A DNA stretch of 35,673 nt from Thermodesulfobacteriota bacterium (GTDB lineage Bacteria > DASVDK01): NCBI GenBank assembly GCA_036562265.1, contig DATCKS010000522.1:1-35673 (forward strand), in the 5' to 3' direction. Positions 9,527 through 34,153 of this stretch are shown one piece after another. Each line of letters starts with the position of its first letter. The first letter of the stretch is position 1. Made by a program: the position numbers and the translations under genes. Under the pieces are notes generated by a model, which saw only the letters and a program-made list of their open reading frames with translations, was not told the origin of the DNA and searched no databases.

Positions 9527-9529
9527 GCG

Positions 9530-9545
9530 CGGCACGTTACTTGCT
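9530..9545 (+). promoter_or_regulatory. Sigma-54 (-24/-12) promoter candidate CGGCACG-TTAC-TTGCT. Alternatively it is part of an intergenic hairpin.
   Basis: GG is at 9531-9532 and GC at 9543-9544, with canonical spacing, inside a 32-nt gap. The -12 C is 15 nt from the ATG at 9559. Caveat: GGCACG (9531-9536) and CGTGCC (9546-9551) are inverted repeats, extended by GCGC/GCGC. The element could therefore be an RNA stem-loop instead. Confidence 0.45.
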
Positions 9546-9558
9546 CGTGCCAGCGCTC

Positions 9559-10542
9559 ATGTCGACCCCCAACGTGAGCGTCGTCATTCCTGCGTACAAC
9601 GCTGCGCGGCACGTCGCCGGCGCGATCGAGAGCGCGCTCGCGGAGACCGACGTGGACGTGGAGGTGATCGTCGTCGACGACGGGTCGCAGGACGATACGG
9701 CGGACGTCGCCAGGGCCGTGTCGCCGCGCGTGCGCGTGCTGCGGCGCGGCAACGGGGGTCCCGGTGCGGCGCGCAACGCGGGCATCGCCGCGGCGCGGGC
9801 CCCACTCGTCGCCTTCCTCGACGCGGACGACCGCTGGCGACCGGGAGGGCTGGCACGGCGGCTCGCGGCTCTCGAGGCCGAGCCGTCGGCCGTGCTCGTG
9901 CATGCCCTCGTGACGTTCGTCGACGAGGAGGGGCGCGAGATTCCGTTCGATCCTCTGGCGTACCGGGTGCCGGCGGACGTGCGACGCGGGTGGGTGCTGC
10001 GTGCCCTCTTCTGGCACAACTTCGTGCACACCTCCACCGTCGTGGCGCGCCGCGACGCGCTCTGCGCCGTGGGGGGCTTCGACGAGCGGCGGGAGATCAT
10101 CGAGGACTACGACCTGTGGCTCAGGCTCGCCGCGCGCGGCCGCTTCGCCTTCCTGCCGGAGGTCGCGGCCGTGTACCGGTGGCACGCGCGGAGTCTCGGG
10201 CGCACGAACGTGGAACGGAGCTTCCTCGGGCAGGTGGCGCCGCTCGAGGGCGCGCTCGCCCGCGGGGGGCTTGCGCGGACCGCGGTCGGCCGGGCGTGGC
10301 TCAGGCGCCGCCGGCTCGCCCTCTTGCACGCGGATCACGCGGACGACCTCCTGCGGTTCCGGGGCGACACGGCCGGCGCCGCGGCCGCGCTCAGGCGGTC
10401 GCTCGCGCTGCAGCCGCTCGCGCCCCGCCGGGCGGCGATGCTCCTCGCGGCGCAGGCGGGACCGGGGGCGGTGGAGCGGGCGCGCCGCGTCATCCGGGCC
10501 GTGCGCGGGCTCGGCGCAGGGCGCCGCCCGAGGCGGGCGTGA
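9559..10542 (+). CDS. Family 2 glycosyltransferase (soluble/peripheral type)
   Basis: Canonical N-terminus MSTPNVSVVIPAYNAARHV, then VIVVDDGSQDDT and the DxD-equivalent FLDADD. A helical C-terminal domain follows. Confidence 0.9.
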   Translation: MSTPNVSVVIPAYNAARHVAGAIESALAETDVDVEVIVVDDGSQDDTADVARAVSPRVRVLRRGNGGPGAARNAGIAAARAPLVAFLDADDRWRPGGLARRLAALEAEPSAVLVHALVTFVDEEGREIPFDPLAYRVPADVRRGWVLRALFWHNFVHTSTVVARRDALCAVGGFDERREIIEDYDLWLRLAARGRFAFLPEVAAVYRWHARSLGRTNVERSFLGQVAPLEGALARGGLARTAVGRAWLRRRRLALLHADHADDLLRFRGDTAGAAAALRRSLALQPLAPRRAAMLLAAQAGPGAVERARRVIRAVRGLGAGRRPRRA

Positions 10543-21818: not shown

Positions 21819-21962
21819 CTGCCAGGACACTAGGCATTTCGGGGAGTTAGGCGACCTCATGTCTTGACCCGTGATGAGCAGCGTGGTACGGTCGCCCGGC
21901 TTCCGGTAACCGGGACACACCGCGGTCGGTGTGGTCCGTCGGTTCCCTTCGAGATCCGCGTC

Positions 21963-23071
21963 ATGTCGTCCGCAGACCTGGTCGCCCGACTCCTCAGCGT
22001 GGCCCGCAGCGGGGCGATCGTCGTCGACGCTGCCGGGCACGTGACCCTGCTCAACGACGCCGCCCGGGAACTCCTCGGCCTCGCGCCCGGTGACCACACG
22101 GGCCGTCCCCTTGCGGCGGTCCTGGAACCGTGCCCCTCGCTCGCGCGGCTGCTCGACGAGGCGCTCGCGGCGGCGGCCGAGGGCGGGTCGACGGCCGACA
22201 AGGCCGAGGCGGCGGTGGTGGTGGGGGGACGGGAACGGGCGGTCGGGTTCACCGTCCACGCCGCGCGCGACGACCAGGGGCGCCTGCTCGGGGCGCTCGT
22301 CCTCCTCAGGGCGCTCTCGCAGATCGAGACGAGCATCGAGATGACGCTCGCTCGCGAGCGCCTGGCGGCCGTCGGCGCCATGGCGGCCACGATCGCCCAC
22401 GAGATGCGCAATCCGCTGGCCGGCATCCGGCTGTCGGCGACCATGCTCAGGCGGCGCATCGAGGCCTCGCCCCAGGAGGCGGACCTGATCGACGCCATCA
22501 TCGCCGAGGTGCGCAAGCTCGAGGAGACGGTCAACCGTTGCCTCACGTACCTGCGCCCCCTCGCCCTCGACCTCGGCGAGGTCTCGGTCAACGACACCGT
22601 GCGCGAGGCGCTGGCGCTCGCCGAGGCGGCGCTCGCCTCCGCCGCCGCGCCGATCGAGGTTCGGCTCGACCTGGCCGAGGGGCTCCCGCCGGTGACCGGC
22701 GACGCGAACCGGTTGCGCGAGGCGGTCTGCAACCTCGTGACGAACGCGATCGAGGCGATGCGCGACCGCGGCGGGACCCTGACGCTGGCGACCGGCTCCT
22801 CGCCGGGGCCGGGCGTGACGATCACCGTCGGCGACACCGGCCCCGGCATCGCTCCGGACATCATGGACTCCATCTTCTACCCGTTCTTCACGACGAAACC
22901 CGAAGGCTCCGGCGTCGGGCTCGCCACCGTGCAGAAGATCGTCACGGGCCACCGCGGCGGCATCGAGGTCTCGAGCGAGCCTGGCCGAGGCGCCACCTTC
23001 CGCATTCTCCTGCCGGCCGCGCGAGGCGCATCCGGCCACACCAACCCCGATCCGCGACGGAGGCTGGCGTC

Positions 23072-23075
<4 letters not shown>
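21963..23075 (+). CDS. Cytoplasmic PAS-domain sensor histidine kinase (NtrB/AtoS-like)
   Basis: PAS-like N-terminus (GAIVVDAAGHVTLLNDAARELLG). H-box AHEMRNPLAGI, N-box NLVTNAIEAM, G1 DTGPGI, G2 GSGVGLATV. No TM segments. ATG at 21963 is preferred over the TTG at 21864 used in the ORF track. Confidence 0.88.
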
Positions 23076-24526
<1,451 letters not shown>

Positions 24527-24700
24527 TTCGGTTCCGTTCACCCCGTCACGGTATTGTCACCGCGCCTTCCGCCATCGGGCCGTAACTCCTACGTTCCCAG
24601 CTCCCTGACCCCGCACCGTTAGCCCGGGCGCCCGTGCGTGCGCTCACGCGGCCTCCAAGGAGGCATAGCGCCTGCTTCGTATGCCGCTCGGTTGCCAACC

Positions 24701-24716
24701 TGGGCATAGCTTTGCC
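24701..24716 (+). promoter_or_regulatory. Weaker sigma-54-like promoter candidate TGGGCAT-AGCT-TTGCC
   Basis: TGG and TTGC are at canonical spacing (GG 24702-24703, GC 24714-24715). The -24 flank is degenerate: it looks like TGGCAT with one extra G. It lies 23 nt upstream of the ATG at 24738 and downstream of GGCATA half-site repeats. Confidence 0.3.
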
Positions 24717-24737: not shown

Positions 24738-26846
24738 ATGCAGAGACGACGACGGCTCGGAGCGACCGCGGTGGCGGCGTTGTGGCTCCTCGCGACGGCG
24801 TGCGGCGCCGCCGTCTCACCCGACCAGCTCTCCGGAGGAGCCGGGCCGGGTGCGGGCGCGGGCGACGGCACGACCCCGGGAGACCAGCCGGGCACCGGTG
24901 AGCCCGGAGGCGCGCCGGGGACCGGTGATCCGGGAGGCGAACCGGGCAGCGGCGGCCCCATCGGCGGGCCGCTCGGGTGGCCCGACGCCCCGCTCGGCGA
25001 CCGTGCCGTCTCGCGCACGCTCGGCGACGCGAACGACAAGGGGAGCGGGCCGATCCAGATCGTCTCCGGCGACCAGGACGGGGCGTACGCGTGGAACGGG
25101 CCGGCCGGCTACGAGCGGCCGGGTGATCCGGAGGGCTTCTGGCCGTACGCCTCGGCGGACGAACTGCCCGACGGCGGCAGCGGCTTCGTGCGCTGGCGCG
25201 CCATCGTGCCGACCTACCCGGCCGACATCTACGTCCCGGGCACCAGCACGCACGTCGCCTTCGAGTACAAGGACAACCTCTTCTCGCCGAAGCTCGATCC
25301 CTATCGGCCCAAGGGGAACGGGCCGAGCGTGAAGATCGGATCGGTCCTGCTCGGGGAGCTCGAGGCGAAGCGCGACCACCGCTGGAAGCGGGTCGTGCTG
25401 GCGATTCCGGCCAACGCCCCGCGCGAGGCGGACGGCCGCTACCGGATCCGCATCGGCGGCGGCACCTACGGGTGGAACGAGTTCTACGGGTCGATGCTCG
25501 TCCACCGCATCATCGCGGCCGAGGGGCCGATCCCGAGCCGCGCGCCGGTGGCCGGCTTCTGGCCGGCGACGACCCCCATCATGGCCGACGGCAAGCTCTA
25601 CGACCGGCAGGGCCGCCCGTACGTGCCGATCATCGTGAACATGCCCTCGGCCGTCAACGACGCGAACCAGTACAAGGCGGCCAACATGATGGGCGCCAAC
25701 ACGAACATCGCCGTCGGCTACGCCGAGGGCAACGGCCGCCGCTGGTGGGCGGAGGGGCACTGGACCTGGATCGACGGCGCCGGCCGGCCGCAGGAGCAGA
25801 TGGGCATCACGACGCTCATGGAGACCTCGGTGCGCGAGGGGCTCTTCACGTCGCCCATCGCGTTCCAGGACACGTGGCAGGCGTACATCAAGATGATGGG
25901 CAAGACGATGACCTACGGCGGTCCCGGCTACCAGGAGCTCTACGACGGGACCTGGCGAGGCGTGACGAAGGTCTTCGAGCGGGCCATGACGAACCTCGTC
26001 AAGTCGAACCCCCACGTGCCCTTCATCTACCTCAAGGACGAGTGGGACCACGAGGACCAGTACTGGGGGAGCCTCGAGGAGCAGGTCCTCGAGCTTCGCG
26101 CGATCGCCAACCGCGTGGCGCCCGGGGTGCCGACGACGGTGGCGACGATGGGCTGGAAGCCGCTCATGCACCGGGCCGGGTTCGAGCTGGCCGACTTCCA
26201 GATGAGCGACACCTACCCGACCTACGACAAGCTCCAGACCATCGCCCTCTTCGCCGAGTCGATGCGGCGGCAGGCCGGCAGCCGGGCCTTCTTCAACATC
26301 GTGGCGCTCAGCCGCGCCTACGAGGGACGCACGACACCGGACAAGTGGCTCGGCGTCAACTACCACCGCCCGGCGCTCTACATGAACCTGGTCCACGGCG
26401 GGCGGGGGATCTGGTTCTGGGGATCGCCGGCCGGGATGAACGACCCGCAGGCCGCCGACTACTACCGGTCGTTCAAGCCGCTCACCGACGAGATCCGGGC
26501 GCTGGCCGACGTGATCCACGGCTCGGCCAAGGAGCTCGGGCGGACCGTCGCCACCGCGAAGGTGGGCGACACGATGTACCCCGAGAAGTACCGGAAGGAG
26601 GGGGACGGCACGAGCGACACCGACGGCGTCGCGACCGCGTACCGGCAGTCGGCCTCCCGCAAGGTGCTCCTCACGGTCAACGAGTGGAACCAGCCGCTCA
26701 CGGCGCGGCTTCGCGTCTCGTCGATCCGCGCGGGCGACCGGATCCGCGTCCTCTTCGAGGACCGGGTGGTCATAGCCGACCAGGACGGGTCGTTCACCGA
26801 CTCGTACGCGCCCTACGAGCGGCACGTGTACGAGATCCCGCGGTGA
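24738..26846 (+). CDS. Lipoprotein paralog of 19659-21713 (beta-sandwich + putative glycoside-hydrolase-like barrel + C-terminal beta-sandwich)
   Basis: Signal with lipobox MQRRRRLGATAVAALWLLATACG, then a Gly/Pro-rich low-complexity tether (GAGPGAGAGDGTTPGDQPGTGEPGGAPGTGDPGGEPGSGGP). The remainder shares the conserved blocks listed for its paralog. SD GAGGGAGGGG lies upstream. Confidence 0.6.
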   Translation: MQRRRRLGATAVAALWLLATACGAAVSPDQLSGGAGPGAGAGDGTTPGDQPGTGEPGGAPGTGDPGGEPGSGGPIGGPLGWPDAPLGDRAVSRTLGDANDKGSGPIQIVSGDQDGAYAWNGPAGYERPGDPEGFWPYASADELPDGGSGFVRWRAIVPTYPADIYVPGTSTHVAFEYKDNLFSPKLDPYRPKGNGPSVKIGSVLLGELEAKRDHRWKRVVLAIPANAPREADGRYRIRIGGGTYGWNEFYGSMLVHRIIAAEGPIPSRAPVAGFWPATTPIMADGKLYDRQGRPYVPIIVNMPSAVNDANQYKAANMMGANTNIAVGYAEGNGRRWWAEGHWTWIDGAGRPQEQMGITTLMETSVREGLFTSPIAFQDTWQAYIKMMGKTMTYGGPGYQELYDGTWRGVTKVFERAMTNLVKSNPHVPFIYLKDEWDHEDQYWGSLEEQVLELRAIANRVAPGVPTTVATMGWKPLMHRAGFELADFQMSDTYPTYDKLQTIALFAESMRRQAGSRAFFNIVALSRAYEGRTTPDKWLGVNYHRPALYMNLVHGGRGIWFWGSPAGMNDPQAADYYRSFKPLTDEIRALADVIHGSAKELGRTVATAKVGDTMYPEKYRKEGDGTSDTDGVATAYRQSASRKVLLTVNEWNQPLTARLRVSSIRAGDRIRVLFEDRVVIADQDGSFTDSYAPYERHVYEIPR

Positions 26847-27505
26847 TCGCCGCGCATCTCCTCGCCGTCCTCGCCGCCGCCGTGCTCGCCGCGCCGGCGG
26901 CGGGGACGGCCTTCGAGGGGCCGCGGCTCGTCGGCACCTGGCTCGTGCCGGGGCAGGCCGGCTCGGCCGTCTTCGAGGACGCCTCGGGCCGGCAGGTCGC
27001 CAGGCGGGTGGGGGACCTCGTGGCGCCGGGCCTGCGTCTCGCGGCGGTGCGGCGGGGCGCGGTGGACCTCGTCGACGACGCGGGGCGTCGTCTCACCCTG
27101 CGCACCGGCCGCGGCGGCGGCCGCGTGCCCGAGCCGGTCGACGGCGTGCGTCTCGCACGGGCCGCGCCGGTCGACGCCGGGCGCCTCGCGCACGCCGGGC
27201 CGGTCGATAGGGACGGCCACCCGCTGCACGTGCGGCACGGGTCGCGGCTCGCGCGCGCGCACGAGGAGGGGCGGTTCGCGGGGCTCAGGCTCGTCGGCGG
27301 GCCGCCCGACACGCCGCTCGTGCGGGCGGGGCTTCGGCCGGGTGACCTCATCGTCGCGGTCGACGGCCGCGAGCTCGACGGCGACGATCCGCAACTGGTT
27401 CCCTCGCTCCTCGAGGCGCTCGACGCCGCCGACGCCGAGTCGCCGCTCCTCGTCGAGGCGCGGCGCGGCGACGAGGTGATCCGCGTGGCCGTCGGCGAGC
27501 CCTGA
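26843..27505 (+). CDS. GspC/PilP-like protein: signal/anchor + HR (secretin-interaction type) domain + PDZ domain
   Basis: N-terminal hydrophobic segment IAAHLLAVLAAAVLAAPAAG. HR-like pattern LVGTWLVPGQAGSAVFEDASGRQVARRVGDLVAPGLRLAAVRRGAVDLVDDAGRRLTL. PDZ-like segment FAGLRLVGGPPDTPLVRAGLRPGDLIVAVDGRELD. GTGA overlap upstream. Confidence 0.65.
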   Translation: MIAAHLLAVLAAAVLAAPAAGTAFEGPRLVGTWLVPGQAGSAVFEDASGRQVARRVGDLVAPGLRLAAVRRGAVDLVDDAGRRLTLRTGRGGGRVPEPVDGVRLARAAPVDAGRLAHAGPVDRDGHPLHVRHGSRLARAHEEGRFAGLRLVGGPPDTPLVRAGLRPGDLIVAVDGRELDGDDPQLVPSLLEALDAADAESPLLVEARRGDEVIRVAVGEP

Positions 27506-27524
27506 CGCCGCAGCCCGTCCGGCT

Positions 27525-27540
27525 TGGCATGTGCCTTGCT
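27525..27540 (+). promoter_or_regulatory. Sigma-54 (-24/-12) promoter candidate TGGCATG-TGCC-TTGCT
   Basis: It matches TGGCACG-N4-TTGCW with a single C-to-T change. GG is at 27526-27527 and GC at 27538-27539. It fills most of the short gap after the stop at 27505. The -12 C is 15 nt from the in-frame GTG at 27554. A 7-bp inverted repeat flanks it: CCGTCCG (27515-27521) and CGGACGG (27546-27552). Confidence 0.6.
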
Positions 27541-27553
27541 GGACGCGGACGGC

Positions 27554-28717
27554 GTGAGCGCCGTTCCCCGCGAAGCGAGCCCCGGCAGCCCCCCTCGGCC
27601 TCGGCGCCCGGTCACGATCCTCCACATGATGGAGACGCCCGACCCGGGCGGGGCCGAGCGGATGCTGCTCGTGCTCCTCGATCGTCTCGATCCCGCGCGT
27701 TACCGCTCGTGCGTCCTCACCTGGCGCGAGGGGTGGCTCAACGAGGAGGTGCGCCGGCGCGGGATCCCGACGGCGAGCCTGCCGCTCGCCCGCCCCATCG
27801 ATCCGACCTGGCCCGCACGGCTCCTCCCGCGGCTGGCGGAGTGGCAGGTGGATCTCCTCCATGCCCACGAGTTCGCCATGAATACCTACGGCGCGATCGC
27901 CGCCAGGCTGGCGCGCAAGCCGATGGTCGCCACGGTTCACGGCAAACAGTACTACGGCGAGCGCTTCCATCGTCGACTGGCCTACCGGTTCGTCGGCAAG
28001 GCCGCCTTCCGCATGGTCGCCGTCTCCCGCGACATCGCCCGCGACCTCACCGAGCGGGTGGGGGTCCGACCGGACGGGCTCGTCACCATCTACAACGGCG
28101 TCGACCTCGCCGCCGTGCGCCGGCCGGGCGAGGGGCGACGGTTGCGGCGGGAGCTGGGCCTCGCCGAGGGGGCGCCGGTCGTCGGCGCCATCGGCAACCT
28201 CCTGCCGGTCAAGGGGCACATCTTCCTCGTCCAGGCGGCCGCGCGCCTGGTGCGCGACTGGCCCGACCTGACCGTGCTCCTCTGCGGCCGGCCGGTCCTC
28301 GGCCCCGACCTCGAGCGCCAGGCCGAGCGGCTCGGCCTGGCCGGGCGCGTCCGCGTCCTCGGGTTCCGCGACGACGTCGGCGCCCTCCTCGACGCCTTCG
28401 ACGTCTTCGTCCTGCCCTCGCTCTCCGAGGGGCTCTCGCTCGCCCTCCTCGAGGCGATGGCGGCCGGCACGCCGGTCGTCGCCACCGCCGTCGGCGGCAC
28501 CCCCGAGCTGGTCCGCGACGGCGAAACCGGCCTCCTCGTGCCGCCCGGCGACGCCGCCGCGCTCGCGGCCGCGATCGGGCGGCTCCTCGCCGACCGGACG
28601 CTGGCGCAACGGCTGGCCGCGAGCGCGCGGGCCCACGTGGAGTCGAGCTTCGGCGCCGACGCCATGGCGGCCCGGTACGACGCGCTCTACGCGGAGATGA
28701 TCGGCGCGAGGCGATGA
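27554..28717 (+). CDS. Family 4 (GT-B) glycosyltransferase
   Basis: N-terminal strand VTILHMMETPDPGGAE. C-terminal EX7E region EGLSLALLEAMAAGTPVVATAVGGTPELVRDGETGLLVPPGD. The start is uncertain. The ORF track uses the TTG at 27524, which lies inside the promoter motif. GTG at 27554 is the only other in-frame start upstream of the first conserved strand. Confidence 0.85.
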   Translation: MSAVPREASPGSPPRPRRPVTILHMMETPDPGGAERMLLVLLDRLDPARYRSCVLTWREGWLNEEVRRRGIPTASLPLARPIDPTWPARLLPRLAEWQVDLLHAHEFAMNTYGAIAARLARKPMVATVHGKQYYGERFHRRLAYRFVGKAAFRMVAVSRDIARDLTERVGVRPDGLVTIYNGVDLAAVRRPGEGRRLRRELGLAEGAPVVGAIGNLLPVKGHIFLVQAAARLVRDWPDLTVLLCGRPVLGPDLERQAERLGLAGRVRVLGFRDDVGALLDAFDVFVLPSLSEGLSLALLEAMAAGTPVVATAVGGTPELVRDGETGLLVPPGDAAALAAAIGRLLADRTLAQRLAASARAHVESSFGADAMAARYDALYAEMIGARR

Positions 28718-29832
28718 GGATCGTGCACGTCGCCTCGGGCGACCTCTGGGCCGGCGCGGAGGTCCAGGTCTTCACCCTCCTCGAGTTCCTCAGGCGCGAC
28801 CCCGCGCTCGACGTGCACGCCGTCGTGCTGAACGACCGGGAACTCGCGCAAAGGCTGCGCGAGGCGGACGTGCCGGTGACGGTGGTCGACGAGACGCGGC
28901 TCACCGCGGTCGCCATCCTCGGCCGGCTCGTCCGGATCCTGCGGCGACTCCGTCCCGACGTCGTCCACACCCACCGCTACAAGGAGAACATCCTCGGGGG
29001 GCTCGCGGCCGCCGCCGCCGGCGTGCCGGCCAGCGTGTGCACCGTGCACGGTCTCACGGAGCGCTACACCGGCTTCGCCCGGCTCAAGATGGGCCTCTAC
29101 ACGGCGCTCGACCACGCGGTCATCCGCGGCCGCCGCCAGACGGTCGTGGCGGTGTCGGCGGACATGGCCCGGCGCCTCGCGCCGCGCCTCGGGCCGGCGA
29201 TCTGCCTCATCCCGAACGGGATCCGACTGCCCGAGGACGCGCCGTCCGATCGGCCGAGCTGGCCCGTCGGGGCGCCGGGCGGCGTCGTGCTCGGCACGGC
29301 GGCGCGGCTCGTCCCGGTCAAGGGGCTCGACGTCCTGCTCGAGGCGCTGCGCCTCGTGTCCGGCGCCGTCGGCGACGTCCGCCTGCTCGTCGTCGGCGAC
29401 GGCCCCCTCCGCCCGGCGCTCGAGGCGCGCGCGGCCGCCCTCGGCCTCGCGGATCGGACCTGGTTCGTCGGCCACCGGACCGACGTGCCGCGCTGGCTCG
29501 CCGCCATGGACGTCTTCGTCCTGCCGTCGTTCGCCGAGGGGCTTCCGATGTCGCTCCTCGAGGCGATGGCCGCGGGACGGCCGATCGTGGCGAGCCGGGT
29601 CGGCGGCGTGCCGGAGGTCGTGCGCGACGGCGTCGAGGGGCGTCTCGTGCCGCCCGGGGACCCACGCGCGCTCGCCGAGGCCTGCCTGGCGCTCGCGACC
29701 GACCCCGACGCCCGGGCGGCGCTCGGCGCGGCGGCGCGGCGGCGCGTCGCCGAGGCCTTCACGATCGACGCGACCGGCCCGCGCTACGTCGCCCTCTATC
29801 GCCGGCTCGCGTCGACGAGGGCGGCGGCGTGA
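28714..29832 (+). CDS. Family 4 (GT-B) glycosyltransferase
   Basis: MRIVHVASGDLWAGAEV and EGLPMSLLEAMAAGRPIVASRVGGVPEVVRDGVEGRLVPPGD. ATGA overlap upstream. Confidence 0.9.
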   Translation: MRIVHVASGDLWAGAEVQVFTLLEFLRRDPALDVHAVVLNDRELAQRLREADVPVTVVDETRLTAVAILGRLVRILRRLRPDVVHTHRYKENILGGLAAAAAGVPASVCTVHGLTERYTGFARLKMGLYTALDHAVIRGRRQTVVAVSADMARRLAPRLGPAICLIPNGIRLPEDAPSDRPSWPVGAPGGVVLGTAARLVPVKGLDVLLEALRLVSGAVGDVRLLVVGDGPLRPALEARAAALGLADRTWFVGHRTDVPRWLAAMDVFVLPSFAEGLPMSLLEAMAAGRPIVASRVGGVPEVVRDGVEGRLVPPGDPRALAEACLALATDPDARAALGAAARRRVAEAFTIDATGPRYVALYRRLASTRAAA

Positions 29833-31127
29833 GCCGGCGCCTGCGGATCCTCTGGCTGTCGCACATGCTGCCGCACCCGCCGGTGAGCGGCGCCCTCCAG
29901 CGGGCGTTCCACCTCCTCGCCGGCGCGGCGGCGGCGCACGACGTCACCCTCGTGAGCTTCACCCAGCGGTCCCTCCTGCGGACGCGGGAGGAGGTGGCGG
30001 CGGCCGTACGGGCGCTCGAACCGCGCTGCCGCGAGGTCGTCGTCTGCGACGTGCCGTCCGACCGGTCGCGCGCTGCCCGCGCGGCGGCGCTCCTCGCGGC
30101 CGGGCTCTCGACACGGCCGTTCATGGCGCGCCGCTTCGCCTCCCGTGCCTTCACCGCGGAAGTCGCCCGCGTCGCGGCGGCGACCCGGTTCGACCTGGTC
30201 CACGTCGACACGATCGGGCTCGCCCCGTACGCGGACCTCGTGCCGGGCGTCCCGTTCGCCCTCGACCACCACAACGTCGAGTCGCACCTCGCCGGCCGCC
30301 GGGCCGCGGCGACCCGCCCGGGTCCGGCCCGGCTCTACCTCGCGGCCGAGGCAGCCAAGCTCGCCGCGCTCGAGCGGCGCTACGCGCGGGCCGCCGCCGT
30401 GAACCTCGTCTGCTCGGCGCTCGACGCCGAACGGCTGTCGGCCGTCGCGCCCGGCGCCCGGACGGCGGTCGTGCCCAACGGGACCGACCCCGCGCGACTC
30501 GGCCGCCCGCGCCGCGCGCCCGAACCGGGCCACCTCCTCTTCGTCGGCGGGCTCTCGTGGTTCCCCAACGCGAACGGCCTGCGCTGGTTCCTGCGGGAGG
30601 TCTGGCCGGTCGTGCGCGCGTCGCGCGGCGATGCGCGCCTCACGGTCGTCGGCGCCGACCCGCCGCCGGACCTGCGTCGGGCGGCGTCGGCCGACTCCCG
30701 GATCGTCCTGGCCGGTCGGGTCGAGGACGTCGCGCCCGCCTTCGCGCGCGCCGCCGCCTTCGTCTGTCCCATCCTCGACGGCGGCGGCACGCGGCTCAAG
30801 GTGCTCGACGCCCTGGCGGCGAGGACGCCGGTCGTCTCCACGACGCTCGGCTGCGAGGGACTCGACCTCGAGCCCGAGCGCCACTACCTCGCCGCCGACG
30901 ACGCCGCGACGTTCGCCCGGCAGACGCTGCGGCTCCTCGCCGACCCCGGCCTTGCCGACGCGCTCGCCGAGGCCGGCCGCCGCGTCGTCGTCGACCGTTT
31001 CGCCTGGCCGCGCATCATCCCGCGTCAGCTCGACGCCTACGAGGCCGCCGTCGCACACCCCCGGGGTCAGGCCTTTCCATTTTCCATGGGGTCAGGCCTT
31101 TCCATTTTCCACACCGGGGAGCGTTGA
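29829..31127 (+). CDS. Family 4 (GT-B) glycosyltransferase (resembles the PEP-CTERM/EpsH1-associated sugar transferase type)
   Basis: LRILWLSHMLPHPPVSGALQRAFHLL, FVGGLSWFPNANGLRWF, GGGTRLKVLDALAARTPVVSTTLGCEGL. The last 20 or so codons run through an AT-richer 25-bp tandem repeat and are probably not ancestral coding sequence. Confidence 0.85.
   Translation: MSRRLRILWLSHMLPHPPVSGALQRAFHLLAGAAAAHDVTLVSFTQRSLLRTREEVAAAVRALEPRCREVVVCDVPSDRSRAARAAALLAAGLSTRPFMARRFASRAFTAEVARVAAATRFDLVHVDTIGLAPYADLVPGVPFALDHHNVESHLAGRRAAATRPGPARLYLAAEAAKLAALERRYARAAAVNLVCSALDAERLSAVAPGARTAVVPNGTDPARLGRPRRAPEPGHLLFVGGLSWFPNANGLRWFLREVWPVVRASRGDARLTVVGADPPPDLRRAASADSRIVLAGRVEDVAPAFARAAAFVCPILDGGGTRLKVLDALAARTPVVSTTLGCEGLDLEPERHYLAADDAATFARQTLRLLADPGLADALAEAGRRVVVDRFAWPRIIPRQLDAYEAAVAHPRGQAFPFSMGSGLSIFHTGER
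31063..31112. repeat. Perfect-phase tandem direct repeat, 2 x 25 bp (GGGGTCAGGCCTTTCCATTTTCCAT / ...CCAC)
   Basis: Read directly: 31063-31087 and 31088-31112 are identical at 24 of 25 positions. GC content is far lower than the surroundings. Each unit contains the sub-repeat TTCCAT-T-TTCCA. It sits at the junction of convergent genes. Confidence 0.9.
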
Positions 31128-31139
31128 GCCCAGGTCCGG

Positions 31140-31799
31140 TCAGAAGCTCCAGGTGAGGTCGAGGCGGACCTCGGGGCCGCCTCGGGTGGTGGACTGGCCG
31201 CCGGTGAACGCGAGGATCAGGCGATCGGAGAGGGGGCGGCGGACGGTCATCTCGATCCGCTCGGTGAAGGGCCGGTAGGCGAGGCGCCAGTCGAGGACGC
31301 CCCGCACGAGGTGGAGCCCCGGAGCGAGATCGAAGCCCTCGCCGACGGCGTTGACGCGAAGCCGCAGCGAGAACCGGTCGTCGACCTCCGGCCCGTCGCG
31401 CGGCATCCCGGCCGCGAGCGTCTCGCCTGCCGCGTCGGGGTCGTCGCCCGCGATCTTCAGGGTGGCGTGCCGGCGGTAGCGGGCCTCGAGACGACGCAGG
31501 AGCGGGACCTGCTCGATCACCTCGTCGGCCAGCTCGTCGCCGAGCCGGTCGAGGTAGGCGCGCGCCACGCGCGCCCGCGAGTCGTCGAGCCGTTCCCGTC
31601 CGACCCGGTCGGCGGCCGCCGACATCGCCGCCGCGGCGCCCGGGCTCTGGAACCGGCTGCGATAGTCGAGCTCGACGGCGAGATCGACCCGCGGTCCCGG
31701 GACGAAGACGTCGGCCAGCGCCGCGAGCAGCGGGGAGGGGACGAGACAGATCGCTCCGGCGGAGAGGACTCCCATCGCCGCCCATCGCGCACGCGCCAC
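31140..31799 (-). CDS. Hypothetical secreted/outer-membrane-associated protein, co-oriented downstream of the GGDEF/HD-GYP gene
   Basis: Only the last ~219 codons of the 861-aa reverse ORF look like real protein. A GTG start at 31799 gives the signal-like N-terminus VARARWAAMGVLSAGAICLVPSPLLAALA. The alternative ATG is at 31775. The protein ends ...RLDLTWSF, an aromatic C-terminus as in OM proteins. I recognise no family. Confidence 0.5.
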   Translation of the reverse strand: MARARWAAMGVLSAGAICLVPSPLLAALADVFVPGPRVDLAVELDYRSRFQSPGAAAAMSAAADRVGRERLDDSRARVARAYLDRLGDELADEVIEQVPLLRRLEARYRRHATLKIAGDDPDAAGETLAAGMPRDGPEVDDRFSLRLRVNAVGEGFDLAPGLHLVRGVLDWRLAYRPFTERIEMTVRRPLSDRLILAFTGGQSTTRGGPEVRLDLTWSF

Positions 31800-31843: not shown

Positions 31844-34060
31844 CTATGCAGCCGGCATGCCCGACCCGCGCCGGATGATGCGGCCGAGGGCTGCGACCAC
31901 GCGGTAGTCGAACTCGGAACCGGCGCGCCGCGTAAGCTCGGCGAGCGCCTCCTCCTGCGAGAGCGCCGGGCGGTAGGGGCGCGGCGACGTCATGGCGTCG
32001 AACGCGTCGGCGACCGACAGGATGCGGGTCGGGAGCGGGATCTGCGCGCCGGCGAGCCCCTCGGGATAGCCGCTGCCGTCGAGCCGCTCGTGGTGCGAGA
32101 GGACCATCGCGCGCTCGGCCTCGAAACCGGGGACCGCCTCGAGGATCTTGGCGCCGAGCGTCGCGTGCGTGCGCGCCAGACGGGTCTCGGCCTCGGTGAG
32201 CGGGCCGGCCTTGCGGAAGAGATCGCCGGTGATCGCGAGGCGGCCGATGTCGTGCAGCCGCCCCGCCACCCGCAGGCGCGCGAGCTGCGGTTCCGGCAGG
32301 AGCAGCTCGCGGCCGATGGCGCACGCGAGGTCGGCCACGCGCCGGCCGTGGCCGTGGAAGCCGCTGCGCGCGTCCACCATGACGGCGATCGCCGAGGCCG
32401 CGAGTTCGAGAAAGCGCCGCTGCTCGCGCTCGAGGCCGACCCCCTCGCGCACGAAGTCCGCGATCGGCTCGGCCAGGGCGAGGACCACGTCGAGGTCGGC
32501 CTCCGTGAAGGCCTCGCGGCGTCGCGGGTTGGCCACGTGGAGCGTGCCGATCACCTCGTCGCCGGCGACGAGCGGCACGGCGAGACAGGAGCGGCTCGTG
32601 TAGTCGCCCGACCCGTTGGGCCGAAGCCCCGGCACCGTGGCCGCCAGCGCCGTGATGTCCGGCGTGGCGAAGGCGCGCCGCGTGGCGGCGACGACCCCGG
32701 CCACCCCCTCGCCGAGCCGCACGCGAAACGTGGCCAGCACGGCCGGCGAGGCGCTCTGGCCGTGGGCGCTCTTGACGACCAGCTCTCCACGCTCGCGGTC
32801 GAGCACCATGAGCGAGGCCCGGCCGCCGCCGACGGCCTCCATCGCCATGCGGGAGAGGAGGTCGAGGAGCTGGCCGACGGTCGCGAAGGAGTTCACCGCC
32901 CGCATGACGAGGTCGTAGTCGATCGTGCCGGAGGCGTCGGCCGCGGGCACGTCCTCGGGCGGAAGCTCGGCCGCCTGGACCACGCGGTTGCGGCCGAGCG
33001 CCTTCGCCCGGTAGAGCGCCAGGTCGGCCGCGCGCACCAGGTCGGCCGGTTCGCGCGCGTCGCCCGGCGCCGTGGCGGTGCCGATGGAGATCGTGAGCCG
33101 CACGTCGGGCTCGGGCCCCGACCCGGGGAACCGGTGCCGCTCGACCGCCTCCGCCACGCGGCGGGCGAAGGTGAGGGCGCCGACCTCGTCGGTCTCGGGG
33201 AGGATCACCGCGAACTCCTCCCCCCCGAAGCGGCACGCGGTGTCGCCGCGCCGCGTCGCGTGGCCGAGGATGCGGGCCACGTCGCGCAGCGCCTGGTCGC
33301 CCGCGGCGTGGCCGTAGCGGTCGTTGTAGGCCTTGAAGTGGTCGACGTCCGCCATGAGGAGCGACAGCGGGCGCCTGGCGCGGAGCCCCCGCGTCAGCTC
33401 GCGGGCAAGCGTCTCGTCGAAATACCGCCGGTTGTAGAGACCGGTGACCGGATCGGTGGTCGCCAGGCGGGCGAGGAGCGCGCGGTCCTGGTGGCGGTGG
33501 AGGATCGCCTCGGCCTGGACCGCGAGGATCATGAGGAACCGGGCGTCCTCCGTCGAGAAGGCGCCGCGCCGCCGGGCGAACAGCTCGAGCGCGCCGCGCG
33601 GCTGCCCCGCCACGAAGAGCGGGACCGAGAGGGCGGAGCCGGCCTCGAGGGGGCCGAGGACCGCCGCGGCTTCCGGATCGTCCGGCGACGGCAGCAGCAT
33701 CGGCTGGCCGAGTCCGAGCGTCCACTCGGTGAGGCGCGTCCCCTCCGCGAGGGCGTCGTCGAGCGGGGCCTCGATGCCGCGGGTGACCGCGAGCGTGAGC
33801 CGCTCGCGGTCCTCGTCCCAGAGGTAGAGGAGCGCTCGGTCGAAGCGCACCATCTCGGCGGCCTGATCGACGAGCACGTTCAGCGCCACGCCGAGGTCCA
33901 TCTGCAGCGCGCCGAGGAGGCTCGCCCGGAGGAGGACGTTGACGTGCGCCACCCGCCGCCTGATGGCCTGGGGCGTCAGCTCGGGCGCCAGCGCCTGGGC
34001 GAAGCGTCGCCCGGCGTCCAGTCGGCCTGCCGCGCTACGCGGGCGCACGTCCATGGACAT
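31844..34060 (-). CDS. Multidomain c-di-GMP turnover protein: GAF - GGDEF (diguanylate cyclase) - GAF - HD-GYP (phosphodiesterase)
   Basis: GGDEF domain DPVTGLYNRRYFDE...DVDHFKAYNDRYGHAAGDQAL...RFGGEEFAVIL, with an RxxD I-site (RRGD) five residues upstream of GGEEF. HD-GYP domain AGRLHDIGRLAI...SHHERLDGSGYPEGL...ADAFDAMTSPRPYR. Start choice: ATG at 34060 lies just downstream of the predicted sigma-54 +1. In-frame ATGs at 34072 and 34054 are alternatives. The ORF is open to 34234, but that would abut the divergent gene. Confidence 0.9.
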   Translation of the reverse strand: MSMDVRPRSAAGRLDAGRRFAQALAPELTPQAIRRRVAHVNVLLRASLLGALQMDLGVALNVLVDQAAEMVRFDRALLYLWDEDRERLTLAVTRGIEAPLDDALAEGTRLTEWTLGLGQPMLLPSPDDPEAAAVLGPLEAGSALSVPLFVAGQPRGALELFARRRGAFSTEDARFLMILAVQAEAILHRHQDRALLARLATTDPVTGLYNRRYFDETLARELTRGLRARRPLSLLMADVDHFKAYNDRYGHAAGDQALRDVARILGHATRRGDTACRFGGEEFAVILPETDEVGALTFARRVAEAVERHRFPGSGPEPDVRLTISIGTATAPGDAREPADLVRAADLALYRAKALGRNRVVQAAELPPEDVPAADASGTIDYDLVMRAVNSFATVGQLLDLLSRMAMEAVGGGRASLMVLDRERGELVVKSAHGQSASPAVLATFRVRLGEGVAGVVAATRRAFATPDITALAATVPGLRPNGSGDYTSRSCLAVPLVAGDEVIGTLHVANPRRREAFTEADLDVVLALAEPIADFVREGVGLEREQRRFLELAASAIAVMVDARSGFHGHGRRVADLACAIGRELLLPEPQLARLRVAGRLHDIGRLAITGDLFRKAGPLTEAETRLARTHATLGAKILEAVPGFEAERAMVLSHHERLDGSGYPEGLAGAQIPLPTRILSVADAFDAMTSPRPYRPALSQEEALAELTRRAGSEFDYRVVAALGRIIRRGSGMPAA

Positions 34061-34076
34061 GACGCACCGCATGCCG

Positions 34077-34092
34077 AGCAAGCGGTGTGCCA
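34077..34092 (-). promoter_or_regulatory. Sigma-54 (-24/-12) promoter candidate on the - strand: TGGCACA-CCGC-TTGCT
   Basis: The reverse complement of 34077-34092 reads TGGCACACCGCTTGCT, a perfect TGGCAC and TTGCT at canonical spacing. The -12 C is at 34078, so the predicted +1 is near 34066. That is 6 nt upstream of the ATG at 34060. Confidence 0.6.
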
Positions 34093-34124: not shown

Positions 34125-34153
34125 TTGACACGCGCCGAGCAGGCACCAATAAT
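34125..34153 (+). promoter_or_regulatory. Sigma-70-type promoter candidate TTGACA-N17-AATAAT for the epimerase/dehydrogenase genes
   Basis: A perfect -35 TTGACA (34125-34130), a 17-nt spacer and a -10 AATAAT (34148-34153, 5 of 6 matches). It is followed by a 5' UTR hairpin CTCGGG-tcttcgg-CCCGAG (34169-34187) and SD GGAAGGGAG before the ATG at 34237. Confidence 0.55.

What the first reader, a model, noticed from the sequence alone, without database searches (positions are those of the whole stretch)
27515..27556. Best sigma-54 match in the window fills an 18-nt intergenic gap, again 15 nt from the only plausible start codon
TGGCATGTGCCTTGCT (27525-27540) differs from TGGCACG-N4-TTGCW by one C-to-T change. 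The TTG at 27524 used by the ORF track lies inside the motif. The only in-frame start between the motif and the conserved first strand of the GT4 (VTILHMM) is the GTG at 27554, 15 nt from the -12 C. The predicted leader is therefore about 3 nt. This is the same geometry as at 9544/9559. A 7-bp inverted repeat (CCGTCCG 27515-27521 / CGGACGG 27546-27552) brackets the motif. Two independent cases of identical spacing argue for a deliberate design: sigma-54 transcripts that are leaderless or nearly so and use ATG or GTG. I am not aware of this as a described regulatory architecture for EPS genes.
Basis: partly seen in the sequence, partly recalled or inferred. Interest (0 to 1): 0.7.

Follow-up and report, generated by a model that had tools for sequence, protein, structure and literature searches.

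The report
Sigma-54 promoter abutting a start codon
A conserved sigma-54 promoter sits 14-15 bases upstream of the GTG start of a sugar-transferase gene in a polysaccharide gene cluster, so its messenger RNA probably has almost no leader; this pairing of promoter type and leaderless RNA is unusual, and no transcript start has been mapped.

Summary
TGGCATGTGCCTTGCT (27525-27540) is a one-mismatch sigma-54 -24/-12 element. The window has four such sites against 0.10 expected, and all four lie directly upstream of genes.

In seven orthologous loci (GT4 61-94% identical), TGGCA, TTGCT and the GTG are invariant. The surrounding DNA is randomised (34-46% identity). The distance from the -12 C to the GTG stays at 14-15 nt, even where the upstream gene or the N-terminal extension differs. 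The GTG is the only start that is conserved and in frame.

Applying the E. coli rule (TSS = -12 C + 12) gives a 2-3 nt leader. E. coli sigma-54 promoters of protein-coding genes have leaders of at least 18 nt. The same geometry is conserved at the GT2 gene (ATG 9559). A similar one (4-6 nt) occurs at a GGDEF gene (ATG 34060). Three other conserved sigma-54-like sites in the cluster are followed by ordinary leaders of about 18-60 nt, two of them with a clear Shine-Dalgarno sequence.

The cluster encodes two GAFTGA enhancer-binding proteins.

The inverted repeat is a real, strong hairpin (z -5.2), but only in this genome and its sister.

No TSS data exist, so "leaderless" is an inference. Verdict: a real sigma-54 promoter (about 0.85) and a probable near-leaderless sigma-54 transcript (about 0.55). 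This is a new variant of known things.

The parts
27525..27540 (+). Sigma-54 (-24/-12) promoter element TGGCATGTGCCTTGCT. GG at 27526-27527, GC at 27538-27539.
   Evidence: one mismatch; 4 sites against 0.10 expected. TGGCA and TTGCT are 100% conserved in 7 orthologous loci while the flanks are 34-46% identical.
27541..27553 (+). 13-nt spacer that contains the predicted transcription start (27551 +/- 2). It is G-rich and Shine-Dalgarno-like (GGACGG), and a C precedes the GTG.
   Evidence: TSS rule -12 C + 12 from PMC4591121. The spacer length is 12-13 nt in all orthologs, while its sequence is only 42-46% conserved.
27554..28717 (+). GT4 glycosyltransferase gene (TIGR03088-like) that starts at GTG 27554. 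It carries a 19-residue Pro/Arg/Ser-rich N-terminal extension before strand beta-1 (VTILH).
   Evidence: TIGR03088, 1e-62, residues 21-382; the GTG is invariant; P0003 and P0005 are called from the homologous codon; length differences between the GTG and beta-1 are multiples of 3. In L066 the GTG directly precedes beta-1.
27502..27558 (+). Imperfect hairpin. Its 5' arm is 27502-27523 (the end of the upstream gene plus the gap). Its 3' arm is 27538-27558 (the -12 GCT, the spacer and the first two bases of the GTG).
   Evidence: -37.9 kcal/mol, z -5.2, 0 of 200 shuffles. L007 gives z -5.6, with a C-G to G-C swap at one pair of the window's fold. L001, L005, L006 and L066 are not significant.
26843..27505 (+). 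Upstream gene (PDZ-like, 220 aa) that ends at TGA 27503-27505. Any enhancer site for the promoter would have to lie inside it.
   Evidence: PF17820 PDZ_6, weak, in an ortholog.
28714..31127 (+). Two further GT4 genes (28714-29832 and 29829-31127) joined by 4-bp overlaps. They are the presumed remainder of the transcription unit driven by the promoter.
   Evidence: TIGR03088 and TIGR03087 hits. The synteny is the same in L001, L006 and L066.
9530..9561 (+). Second short-leader case: CGGCACGTTACTTGCT (9530-9545), a 13-nt spacer, then ATG 9559 of a GT2 gene (9559-10542).
   Evidence: The same motif and the same 15-nt spacing occur in L069 and L152. L071 keeps the motif, with in-frame ATGs at +18 and +21. 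L070 lacks it.
34058..34092 (-). Third short-leader case: TGGCACACCGCTTGCT (34092-34077), then ATG 34060 of the GAF-GGDEF-HD-GYP gene (34060-31844). The -12 C at 34078 is 18 nt from the ATG.
   Evidence: L001 has the identical motif with its ATG 16 nt from the C, and an N-terminus of equal length up to the RF motif.
8130..8350 (+). Conventional sigma-54 site GGGCACGCCTCTTGCT (8130-8145), then a leader with the Shine-Dalgarno sequence GGAGGGAGG, then a conserved 58-aa membrane-protein ORF (8174-8350).
24661..24676 (+). Sigma-54-like site AGGCATAGCGCCTGCT upstream of the 24738-26846 gene. It is the candidate promoter for read-through transcription into the GT4 junction.
   Evidence: a motif at the equivalent position in L001, L007 and L066.
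31847..31862 (-). Sigma-54-like site GGGCATGCCGGCTGCA in the last codons of the GGDEF gene, upstream of the 211-aa secreted-protein gene (31799/31775-31140), with an ordinary leader.
   Evidence: conserved in L001 and L007.
21864..24526 (+). Histidine kinase (21864-23075) and an NtrC-type response-regulator enhancer-binding protein with a GAFTGA motif (23072-24526). These are the candidate activator pair. A second GAFTGA enhancer-binding protein fragment lies at 1-975.

Best explanation
27525-27540 is a functional sigma-54 (RpoN) promoter inside a PEP-CTERM/XrtA-like exopolysaccharide cluster. An enhancer-binding protein encoded in the cluster (23072-24526, or the one at 1-975) probably activates it. 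It drives the three-gene GT4 unit 27554-31127.

The -12 GC sits 14-15 nt from the GTG start. Transcription therefore begins about 0-4 nt before, or at, the start codon. The resulting mRNA has no room for a Shine-Dalgarno sequence and must be translated in the leaderless, 5'-end-dependent mode from GUG.

Shown: the motif, its non-random occurrence, its conservation, the conserved spacing, the identity of the start codon, and the presence of GAFTGA activators.

Inferred: sigma-54 binding, the position of the transcription start, which activator acts, and the mode of translation.

In this genome and its sister, a hairpin pairs the upstream flank with the -12 GCT, the spacer and the GTG. It would form only in read-through RNA. 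It could mask the start on read-through RNA or terminate upstream transcription, which would make GT4 expression depend on the sigma-54 promoter. This last step is speculative.
For: - Four sites with <=1 mismatch against 0.10 expected, all directly upstream of genes.
- Seven orthologous loci keep TGGCA-N6-TTGCT and the GTG at 100% identity, while the flanks are 34-46% identical.
- The -12 C to GTG distance is 15 nt in the window, L007, L001, L066 and L067, and 14 nt in L005, L006 and L064.
- The spacing holds where the intergenic region is about 120-200 nt longer (L006, L064). It also holds in L066, where the upstream gene differs and the N-terminal extension is absent.
- The two TTGs are out of frame in the three loci with 14-nt spacing.
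- Length differences between the GTG and beta-1 are multiples of 3.
- 110 more distant homolog loci lack a sigma-54 motif next to the GT4 start.
- TSS = motif centre + 19 = -12 C + 12. E. coli protein-coding sigma-54 promoters have leaders of 18-254 nt (PMC4591121).
- The same geometry is conserved at GT2, and a near-equivalent at GGDEF.
- These three genes lack a canonical Shine-Dalgarno sequence, whereas many others in the window have GGAGG or GGGAG.
- A pyrimidine precedes the start codon in every case, which fits the Y(-1)R(+1) preference for transcription starts.
- Two enhancer-binding proteins carry GAFTGA.
- There is no sigma-70-like promoter or terminator in 27000-28000.
Against: - No transcript 5' end, proteomic N-terminus or rpoN gene is available for this uncultured organism.
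- The TSS rule comes from E. coli.
- A 5'-terminal GUG, or a GUG behind a 2-3 nt leader, is a poor substrate for leaderless translation in E. coli (own knowledge; references 42, 44 and 45 of PMC3616915).
- The spacer is G-rich. It reads GGAGG in L005 and L067 and GGACG in the window, L007 and L006. It could serve as a very close Shine-Dalgarno sequence on read-through transcripts, so the gene need not depend on the promoter.
- No shared enhancer palindrome was found upstream of the six sites.
- The hairpin is confined to two close relatives.
Confidence: 0.55

Rival explanations
1. The promoter is real, but GT4 protein is made mainly from polycistronic read-through mRNA (from the 24661 region). 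That route would use the G-rich spacer as a close Shine-Dalgarno sequence, or translational coupling to the upstream gene. Sigma-54-initiated transcripts would be translated poorly at the GTG and would add little GT4, perhaps serving mainly the downstream genes.
For: - The spacer contains GGAGG (L005, L067) or GGACG (window, L007, L006) 2-5 nt before the GTG.
- The gene sits in a tightly packed same-strand cluster with many 4-bp overlaps.
- A conserved sigma-54-like site at 24661 could supply read-through transcripts.
- Leaderless GUG is inefficient in E. coli (own knowledge).
Against: - The Shine-Dalgarno-like element is not conserved in L001 or L066, and it lies too close to the start.
- The GT2 (9559) and GGDEF (34060) cases have no Shine-Dalgarno-like spacer at all.
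- The GGDEF promoter stands alone in a divergent intergenic region where read-through is unlikely.
- The tight conservation of the promoter-to-start distance is unexplained if the promoter's transcripts are not meant to be translated from that codon.
- In the window, the hairpin would bury the Shine-Dalgarno-like bases on read-through RNA.
Confidence: 0.2
2. The site binds sigma-54 holoenzyme but is not a productive promoter for the GT4 gene. It would act as a roadblock, as an insulator against read-through, or as a poised inert site like many E. coli intragenic sigma-54 sites.
For: - Most E. coli sigma-54 ChIP sites are not demonstrated promoters (PMC4591121).
- Sigma-54 promoter sequences can silence translation of read-through transcripts (bioRxiv 10.1101/086108, abstract).
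Against: - The site has the orientation, position and fixed distance expected of a promoter for the gene immediately downstream.
- It is conserved across loci whose GT4 proteins are only 61% identical, and across changed upstream contexts.
- The locus encodes its own activators.
Confidence: 0.1
3. The true start is ATG 27626 (or 27629), as in the NCBI annotation (363 aa). The GTG-to-ATG stretch would then be a 5' UTR of about 75 nt, so the transcript has an ordinary leader.
For: - Gene callers chose ATG 27626 for P0001 and for both NCBI proteins, and the homologous ATG for P0002 and P0006.
- The ATG-ATG pair is conserved in most orthologs.
Against: - That start removes strand beta-1 (T-I/V-L-H), with which more distant homologs begin (M-K/R-T-I-L-H-L-I-E).
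- TIGR03088 aligns from residue 21 of the GTG-started protein.
- The beta-1 codons are conserved at the amino-acid level.
- L066 has CTG-ATG in place of the ATG pair, and its GTG lies three codons before beta-1.
- There is no Shine-Dalgarno sequence before ATG 27626.
Confidence: 0.07
4. The motif is a chance match in GC-rich DNA.
For: With two mismatches allowed, 5 sites occur against 2.2 expected, which is not significant.
Against: - With one mismatch allowed, 4 sites occur against 0.10 expected, and none of 100 shuffles reached 4.
- The core bases are invariant across seven loci whose flanks are randomised.
Confidence: 0.02

Closest known systems
Sigma-54 (RpoN) -24/-12 promoters activated by bacterial enhancer-binding proteins (for example E. 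coli glnAp2, pspA and hypA; consensus TGGCACG-N4-TTGCW)
   Same: - GG and GC exactly 10 nt apart.
- 15 of 16 positions of the pattern match (11 of the 12 specified bases).
- Located directly upstream of a gene.
- GAFTGA activators are encoded nearby.
- Several such sites occur in one functional gene cluster.
   Different: The predicted TSS-to-start distance is 2-3 nt (4-6 nt at the GGDEF gene). The 41 protein-coding genes in the intergenic-sense set of E. coli sigma-54 sites have 18 nt or more (PMC4591121, Table 1). There is no room for a Shine-Dalgarno sequence.
Leaderless mRNAs from sigma-70-type promoters, where the -10 box abuts the ORF (Actinobacteria, Deinococcus-Thermus, Caulobacter, S. 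meliloti; PMC12340547, PMC3616915)
   Same: - The last promoter element lies a fixed short distance from the start codon.
- There is no Shine-Dalgarno sequence.
- The start codon is at or within a few nucleotides of the predicted 5' end.
   Different: - The promoter class is sigma-54, which is activator-gated and has no basal activity, rather than sigma-70.
- The start codon is GTG at the GT4 gene. All 171 leaderless mRNAs mapped in S. meliloti begin with AUG.
- In seven full-text searches I found no paper that describes sigma-54-dependent leaderless mRNAs.
PEP-CTERM/XrtA exopolysaccharide loci regulated by PrsK/PrsR and RpoN (Haft et al. 2006, PMC1569441; Aquincola floc formation, PMC9850573)
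   Same: - The EPS cluster carries XrtA-system-type export, chain-length, ATPase, tyrosine-kinase, priming-glycosyltransferase and stp1/stp2-type GT4 genes.
- It also carries a histidine kinase and a sigma-54 activator pair.
   Different: - No exosortase and no PEP-CTERM protein is seen in the window.
- The activator and the kinase score below the PrsR and PrsK cut-offs (414.5 against 502.6 bits; 84.8 against 300 bits).
- Most TIGR030xx hits are below their cut-offs.
Read-through insulation encoded in sigma-54 promoters (Levy et al., bioRxiv 10.1101/086108)
   Same: A sigma-54 promoter lies inside an operon-like array. When transcribed from upstream, its RNA could pair with the translation-initiation region of the next gene. 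The window hairpin buries the spacer and the GTG.
   Different: The described mechanism uses short CT-rich anti-Shine-Dalgarno motifs. Here it is a long GC-rich stem formed with the upstream flank, it is present in only two close relatives, and it is untested.

Membership tests
Sigma-54-dependent promoter | Conserved GG (-24) and GC (-12) dinucleotides separated by exactly 10 nt | tested here: met
   GG at 27526-27527 and GC at 27538-27539. The same holds in all seven orthologs.
Sigma-54-dependent promoter | Match to the extended consensus TGGCACG-N4-TTGCW beyond chance | tested here: met
   One mismatch. Four such sites in the window against 0.10 expected.
Sigma-54-dependent promoter | Evolutionary conservation of the -24 and -12 elements relative to neutral flanks | tested here: met
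   The core is 100% identical while the flanks are 34-46% identical across six lineages.
Sigma-54-dependent promoter | A cognate AAA+ enhancer-binding protein with a GAFTGA loop | tested here: met
   GAFTGA at residue 217 of the 23072-24526 product and at residue 68 of the 1-975 fragment. Strong hits to NtrC/AtoC/PrsR-type NCBIfam families, all below their equivalog cut-offs.
Sigma-54-dependent promoter | An upstream activator sequence (enhancer) about 80-150 bp upstream | tested here: inconclusive
   No gapped palindrome is shared by more than 2 of the 6 upstream regions. For this site, any enhancer would lie inside the upstream coding region.
Sigma-54-dependent promoter | rpoN present in the genome, and sigma-54- and activator-dependent transcription from the site | not testable with these tools
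   Only a 35.7-kb window of an uncultured MAG is available, and no expression data exist.
Leaderless or near-leaderless mRNA (5' UTR <= 5 nt) | A primary 5' end at, or within 5 nt of, the start codon | not testable with these tools
   The TSS is predicted at 27551 (-12 C + 12; rule from PMC4591121), which gives a 3-nt leader. It has not been measured.
Leaderless or near-leaderless mRNA (5' UTR <= 5 nt) | A correctly assigned start codon | tested here: met
   The GTG is invariant and is the only start in frame in all orthologs. In L066 it directly precedes beta-1.
Leaderless or near-leaderless mRNA (5' UTR <= 5 nt) | An AUG (or, in some phyla, GUG) at the 5' terminus, and no Shine-Dalgarno sequence on the transcript | tested here: inconclusive
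   The start is GTG at the GT4 gene and ATG at the GT2 and GGDEF genes. A Shine-Dalgarno-like GGACGG or GGAGG lies upstream of the predicted TSS, so it would be absent from the sigma-54 transcript. Whether this lineage can translate leaderless GUG is unknown.
PEP-CTERM/XrtA exopolysaccharide system | An exosortase (XrtA/EpsH) and PEP-CTERM substrate proteins | tested here: not met
   None of the 28 window proteins hits an exosortase model. One may lie outside the window.
PEP-CTERM/XrtA exopolysaccharide system | Associated EPS genes that pass the NCBIfam equivalog cut-offs | tested here: inconclusive
   TIGR03007 (298 against 279 bits) and TIGR03013 (500 against 393 bits) pass. TIGR03027, TIGR03015, TIGR03018, TIGR03088, TIGR03087, PrsR and PrsK are below their cut-offs.

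The most novel reading that the evidence does not exclude
A lineage of uncultured, high-GC Thermodesulfobacteriota-labelled bacteria uses sigma-54 promoters placed 14-18 nt from start codons as a conserved design. The resulting transcripts would be activator-gated and essentially leaderless: no basal transcription, no Shine-Dalgarno sequence, and 5'-end-dependent initiation at AUG or GUG. This would apply to selected glycosyltransferase and c-di-GMP genes of an exopolysaccharide regulon, side by side with conventional sigma-54 promoters in the same locus. In some genomes a hairpin would make the genes blind to read-through transcription. A similar site in an unrelated soil contig (L148/L149: ATG 14 nt from the -12 C) hints that the design may be more widespread.
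Probability: 0.45. Interest if true: 0.6.

Novelty: new variant of a known kind. Interest (0 to 1): 0.5.

Why it matters
Sigma-54 promoters are the tightest off-switches in bacterial transcription, and leaderless mRNAs bypass Shine-Dalgarno-based control of translation. If the two are combined, transcription initiation would be the main control point, with no leader-encoded translational control.

It would also show that sigma-54 open complexes can start at, or next to, a coding sequence. That would extend leaderless initiation at GUG to a new phylum-level group, and it would give start-site callers a new rule for such genomes.

A practical consequence already follows. The public annotations of both genes have starts that the comparative data do not support: the GT4 protein is truncated by 24 residues and loses beta-1, and the GT2 protein is extended by 4 residues.

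Tried and rejected
- Shared enhancer palindromes upstream of the six sigma-54-like sites: none occurred in more than 2 sites.
- Rfam scan of the whole window: no family.
- Sigma-70 promoter and intrinsic terminator scan of 27000-28000: nothing found.
- Stop-codon read-through fusion of the PDZ gene and GT4 (same frame in the window): rejected, because the two are out of frame in L001 (43 nt from the TGA to the GTG).
- TTG 27524 and TTG 27536 as starts: rejected, because they are out of frame in L005, L006 and L064.
- GTG 9547 as the GT2 start (the NCBI call): rejected, because the sister genome has GCA there.
- Hairpin at the 9530 site (z -1.8): not conserved even in the sister genome, so treated as chance.
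- Metagenome scan for more close orthologs: only one hit of 65% or more, and it is truncated at its 5' end.
- Distant GT4 homologs (52% identity or less; 110 loci): no sigma-54 motif next to the GT4 start, so the promoter is clade-specific.
- Literature: seven full-text searches found no sigma-54-dependent leaderless mRNA. Barrios 1999 is not held. Table S10 of the S. meliloti paper is truncated. Isolated precedents in supplementary TSS tables therefore cannot be excluded.
Full report
**What is in the sequence.**

The window is 73% G+C. Positions 1-31127 form one same-strand, tightly packed cluster with many 4-bp start/stop overlaps.

NCBIfam identifies the cluster as a PEP-CTERM/XrtA-like exopolysaccharide locus. 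It encodes:
- an export protein, a chain-length determinant, an ATPase, a tyrosine kinase and a priming glycosyltransferase;
- several GT2 and GT4 enzymes, a Wzy-like ligase and a flippase;
- a histidine kinase and an NtrC-type enhancer-binding protein;
- the C-terminal part of a second enhancer-binding protein at the left edge of the window.

Both enhancer-binding proteins carry the GAFTGA loop that contacts sigma-54. An exact cluster look-up shows that the window is a contig of an NCBI third-party-annotated MAG labelled Thermodesulfobacteriota.

**The observation.**

- TGGCATGTGCCTTGCT at 27525-27540, with one mismatch to TGGCACG-N4-TTGCW;
- in-frame TTG 27524, TTG 27536 and GTG 27554, with the next in-frame start at ATG 27626;
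- the -12 C at 27539, 15 nt from the GTG;
- an exact 7-bp inverted repeat;
- the same 15-nt geometry at 9544/9559.

The motif is not a chance match. Four sites in the window have at most one mismatch, against 0.10 expected from 100 dinucleotide-preserving shuffles, and no shuffle reached four. All four lie directly upstream of a gene.

Minor corrections:
- The site is joint-best, not best.
- It lies in the 48-nt gap between the TGA (27503-27505) and the GTG, not in the 18-nt gap.
- The 7-bp repeat is the core of a longer hairpin.

**Which start codon.**

Distant homologs of the GT4 protein begin M-K/R-T-I-L-H-L-I-E, that is, right at strand beta-1. TIGR03088 aligns from residue 21 of the protein started at the GTG. 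ATG 27626, which NCBI and several gene callers chose, would delete beta-1.

Close homologs P0003 and P0005 are called from the codon homologous to GTG 27554. At the DNA level:
- The GTG is invariant in all orthologs.
- The distance from the GTG to the I-L-H codons is 21 codons in five lineages (window/L007, L067, L001, L005 and L006), 23 in L064 and 4 in L066. These differences are all multiples of three.
- The two TTGs are in frame only where the spacing is 15 nt. They are out of frame in L005, L006 and L064.
- In L066 the GTG sits three codons before beta-1, and a different gene lies upstream.

GTG 27554 is therefore the homologous start.

**Conservation.**

I recovered syntenic loci through exact-protein look-ups and one genome scan. 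The GT4 proteins are 94% (L007), 83% (L067, 5'-truncated contig), 78% (L001-L004), 74% (L005), 65% (L006), 64% (L064/L065) and 61% (L066) identical to the window's.

| Locus | Motif | Spacer to GTG (nt) | -12 C to GTG (nt) |
|---|---|---|---|
| window | TGGCATGTGCCTTGCT | 13 | 15 |
| L007 | TGGCATGTGCCTTGCT | 13 | 15 |
| L001 | TGGCATGTGCCTTGCT | 13 | 15 |
| L005 | TGGCATCGGCCTTGCT | 12 | 14 |
| L006 | TGGCACATCGCTTGCT | 12 | 14 |
| L064 | TGGCACGTCACTTGCT | 12 | 14 |
| L066 | TGGCATGCCCGTTGCT | 13 | 15 |
| L067 | ...CTTGCT (contig end) | 13 | 15 |

In the alignment, the only invariant non-coding columns are TGGCA, TTGCT and GTG. Pairwise identity by segment (L007 excluded) is:
- 100% in those cores;
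- 34% in the 30 nt upstream;
- 46% in the six bases between the two elements;
- 42% in the spacer to the GTG.

About 31% is expected at this base composition (my own calculation). The intergenic region is about 120-200 nt longer in L006 and L064, yet the distance from promoter to start does not change.

A 56%-identical homolog (L068) lacks the motif, and 110 loci with 52% identity or less have no sigma-54 motif next to the GT4 start. The promoter is therefore a feature of this clade, not of the protein family. This pattern is the phylogenetic footprint expected of a sigma-54 promoter coupled to a start codon.

**Predicted transcript.**

Bonocora et al. place the TSS 19 bp downstream of the centre of the 17-nt motif. 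That equals the -12 C plus 12 (PMC4591121). In their Table 1, the intergenic-sense sigma-54 sites upstream of E. coli protein-coding genes lie 18-254 nt from the start codon, apart from one outlier at 3,739 nt whose predicted start is intragenic. Only the sRNA gene glmY scores 1.

The same rule gives these leaders here:

| Gene | Locus | Predicted leader (nt) |
|---|---|---|
| GT4 (GTG 27554) | window (TSS 27551) | 3 |
| GT4 | L005, L006, L064 | 2 |
| GT2 (ATG 9559) | window | 3 |
| GGDEF (ATG 34060) | window | 6 |
| GGDEF | L001 | 4 |

Every one of these start codons is preceded by a pyrimidine. That fits the usual Y(-1)R(+1) preference and leaves open initiation exactly at the start codon.

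None of the three genes has a canonical Shine-Dalgarno sequence, whereas many other genes in the window have GGAGG or GGGAG. The organism's Shine-Dalgarno usage is therefore ordinary.

The TSS position is an inference. No 5'-end data exist for this uncultured lineage.

**The other sites.**

- **GT2 gene (9530).** The motif and the 15-nt spacing recur in L069 (77% identity) and L152, the sister MAG. L071 keeps the motif, with in-frame ATGs at +18 and +21. L070 has overlapping genes and an AGGAGG instead. The GTG 9547 used by NCBI for the window's protein reads GCA in L152, so ATG 9559 is the conserved start.
- **GGDEF gene (34092, minus strand).** TGGCACACCGCTTGCT is identical in L001. The N-termini from ATG 34060 (window) and from the L001 ATG have equal length up to a shared RF motif. 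This promoter stands in a divergent intergenic region, where read-through is unlikely.
- **Conventional sites.** Three further sigma-54-like sites recur at the equivalent positions in the orthologous loci and are followed by ordinary leaders:
  - 8130, before a conserved 58-aa membrane protein, with a clear Shine-Dalgarno sequence;
  - 24661, before the 24738 gene, also with a clear Shine-Dalgarno sequence;
  - 31862 (minus strand), before a 211-aa secreted protein, whose start codon is uncertain.

The locus is thus a multi-promoter sigma-54 regulon. Half of its promoters abut start codons.

**The inverted repeat.**

In the window, RNA 27500-27560 folds to -37.9 kcal/mol (z -5.2, 0 of 200 shuffles). 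The stem pairs the end of the upstream gene and the gap with the -12 GCT, the spacer and the first two bases of the GTG.

L007 folds equally well (z -5.6). One pair of the window's fold (27516/27545) is swapped from C-G to G-C in L007.

L001, L005, L006 and L066 show nothing (z about 0). L064 is marginal (z -1.6). The repeat is therefore real but lineage-restricted, and it is not part of the conserved design.

The hairpin would exist only in read-through RNA, because its 5' arm lies upstream of the predicted TSS. It could mask the start codon on such RNA, or act as a U-less terminator. This resembles in spirit the read-through insulation described for sigma-54 promoters (bioRxiv 10.1101/086108, abstract), but it is untested.

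**Rivals.**

The strongest rival is that GT4 is translated mainly from read-through polycistronic RNA. The spacer is G-rich: GGAGG in L005 and L067, GGACG in the window, L007 and L006.

Against this:
- The element is not conserved.
- It lies only 2-5 nt from the start.
- It is absent at the GT2 and GGDEF sites.
- It would be buried by the hairpin in the window.

The remaining rivals are less likely, for the reasons given in their entries: a non-productive sigma-54 binding site, a start at ATG 27626 with a leader of about 75 nt, and a chance match.

**Comparison with what is known, and novelty.**

Sigma-54 control of PEP-CTERM-type EPS loci is known (PMC1569441, PMC9850573). Leaderless mRNAs are common in several phyla, where a sigma-70 -10 box abuts the ORF (PMC12340547, PMC3616915).

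What I could not find is the combination. Seven full-text searches returned no paper that describes sigma-54-dependent leaderless transcripts. The nearest mention is a sigma-A-type leaderless pexR next to sigma-54 promoters in Myxococcus (PMC12754779). Isolated precedents in supplementary TSS tables cannot be excluded.

I rate this as a new variant of known kinds, of moderate interest. The interest is limited by the lack of any transcript data.

Noticed in passing
window 8174-8350 (+): A conserved 58-aa ORF with one predicted membrane helix (MRRIVRRAKRLFNWDVVIRLALVPAVGYVLAGAALGA...). It lies behind a sigma-54 site and a strong Shine-Dalgarno sequence, between the priming glycosyltransferase and the first GT2. 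It is 64-90% identical in L069, L152 and L071. No function is known.
   Followed up: partly
window 27626 and 9547 (public annotation): The NCBI proteins for this contig start the GT4 at ATG 27626 (HEY8370548.1, 363 aa, losing strand beta-1) and the GT2 at GTG 9547 (HEY8370534.1, 331 aa). Comparative data favour GTG 27554 and ATG 9559.
   Followed up: yes
L148 598-583 and L149 2153-2138 (minus strand of each locus): In an unrelated high-GC soil metagenome contig, GGGCACGCGTGTTGCT is followed after 12 nt by the ATG of a 185-aa ORF with a VGCGDG motif that looks like a methyltransferase. The -12 C is 14 nt from the ATG, and the site lies in a true intergenic region. It may be another short-leader sigma-54 promoter in a different lineage.
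   Followed up: partly
window 34125-34153 (+): A near-consensus sigma-70-type promoter, TTGACA-17-AATAAT (11 of 12 matches; 0 expected), faces the epimerase gene (ATG 34237, Shine-Dalgarno GGAAGGGAGA). It shares the divergent intergenic region with the sigma-54 promoter of the GGDEF gene. Its AT-rich boxes also appear in L001.
   Followed up: partly
window 31140-31799 (-): The mechanical ORF 31015-31785 is in the wrong frame (Arg-rich nonsense). The real gene is in another frame: start GTG 31799 or ATG 31775, end 31140, about 211 aa, with a signal-peptide-like N-terminus. This matches the 212-aa ortholog in L001.
   Followed up: partly
window 24701-24716 (+): A second, weaker GG-N10-GC element (TGGGCATAGCTTTGCC) lies 40 nt downstream of the 24661 site, about 23 nt before ATG 24738. 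Its TTTGCC part is kept in L001 and L007. It is unclear which of the two tandem sites is the promoter.
   Followed up: no
window 27503-27556: The upstream PDZ-like gene and the GT4 are in the same reading frame, separated by a single TGA with no further stop. This holds only in the window and L007. In L001 the two are out of frame, so a read-through fusion is not a conserved feature.
   Followed up: yes
window 9524-9558 (+): A second hairpin (GAGCGCGGCACG / CGUGCC-A-GCGCUC, -27.3 kcal/mol, z -1.8) pairs the -24 element of the 9530 site with the spacer before ATG 9559. It is disrupted in the sister genome L152 and in L069, so it is probably fortuitous.
   Followed up: yes
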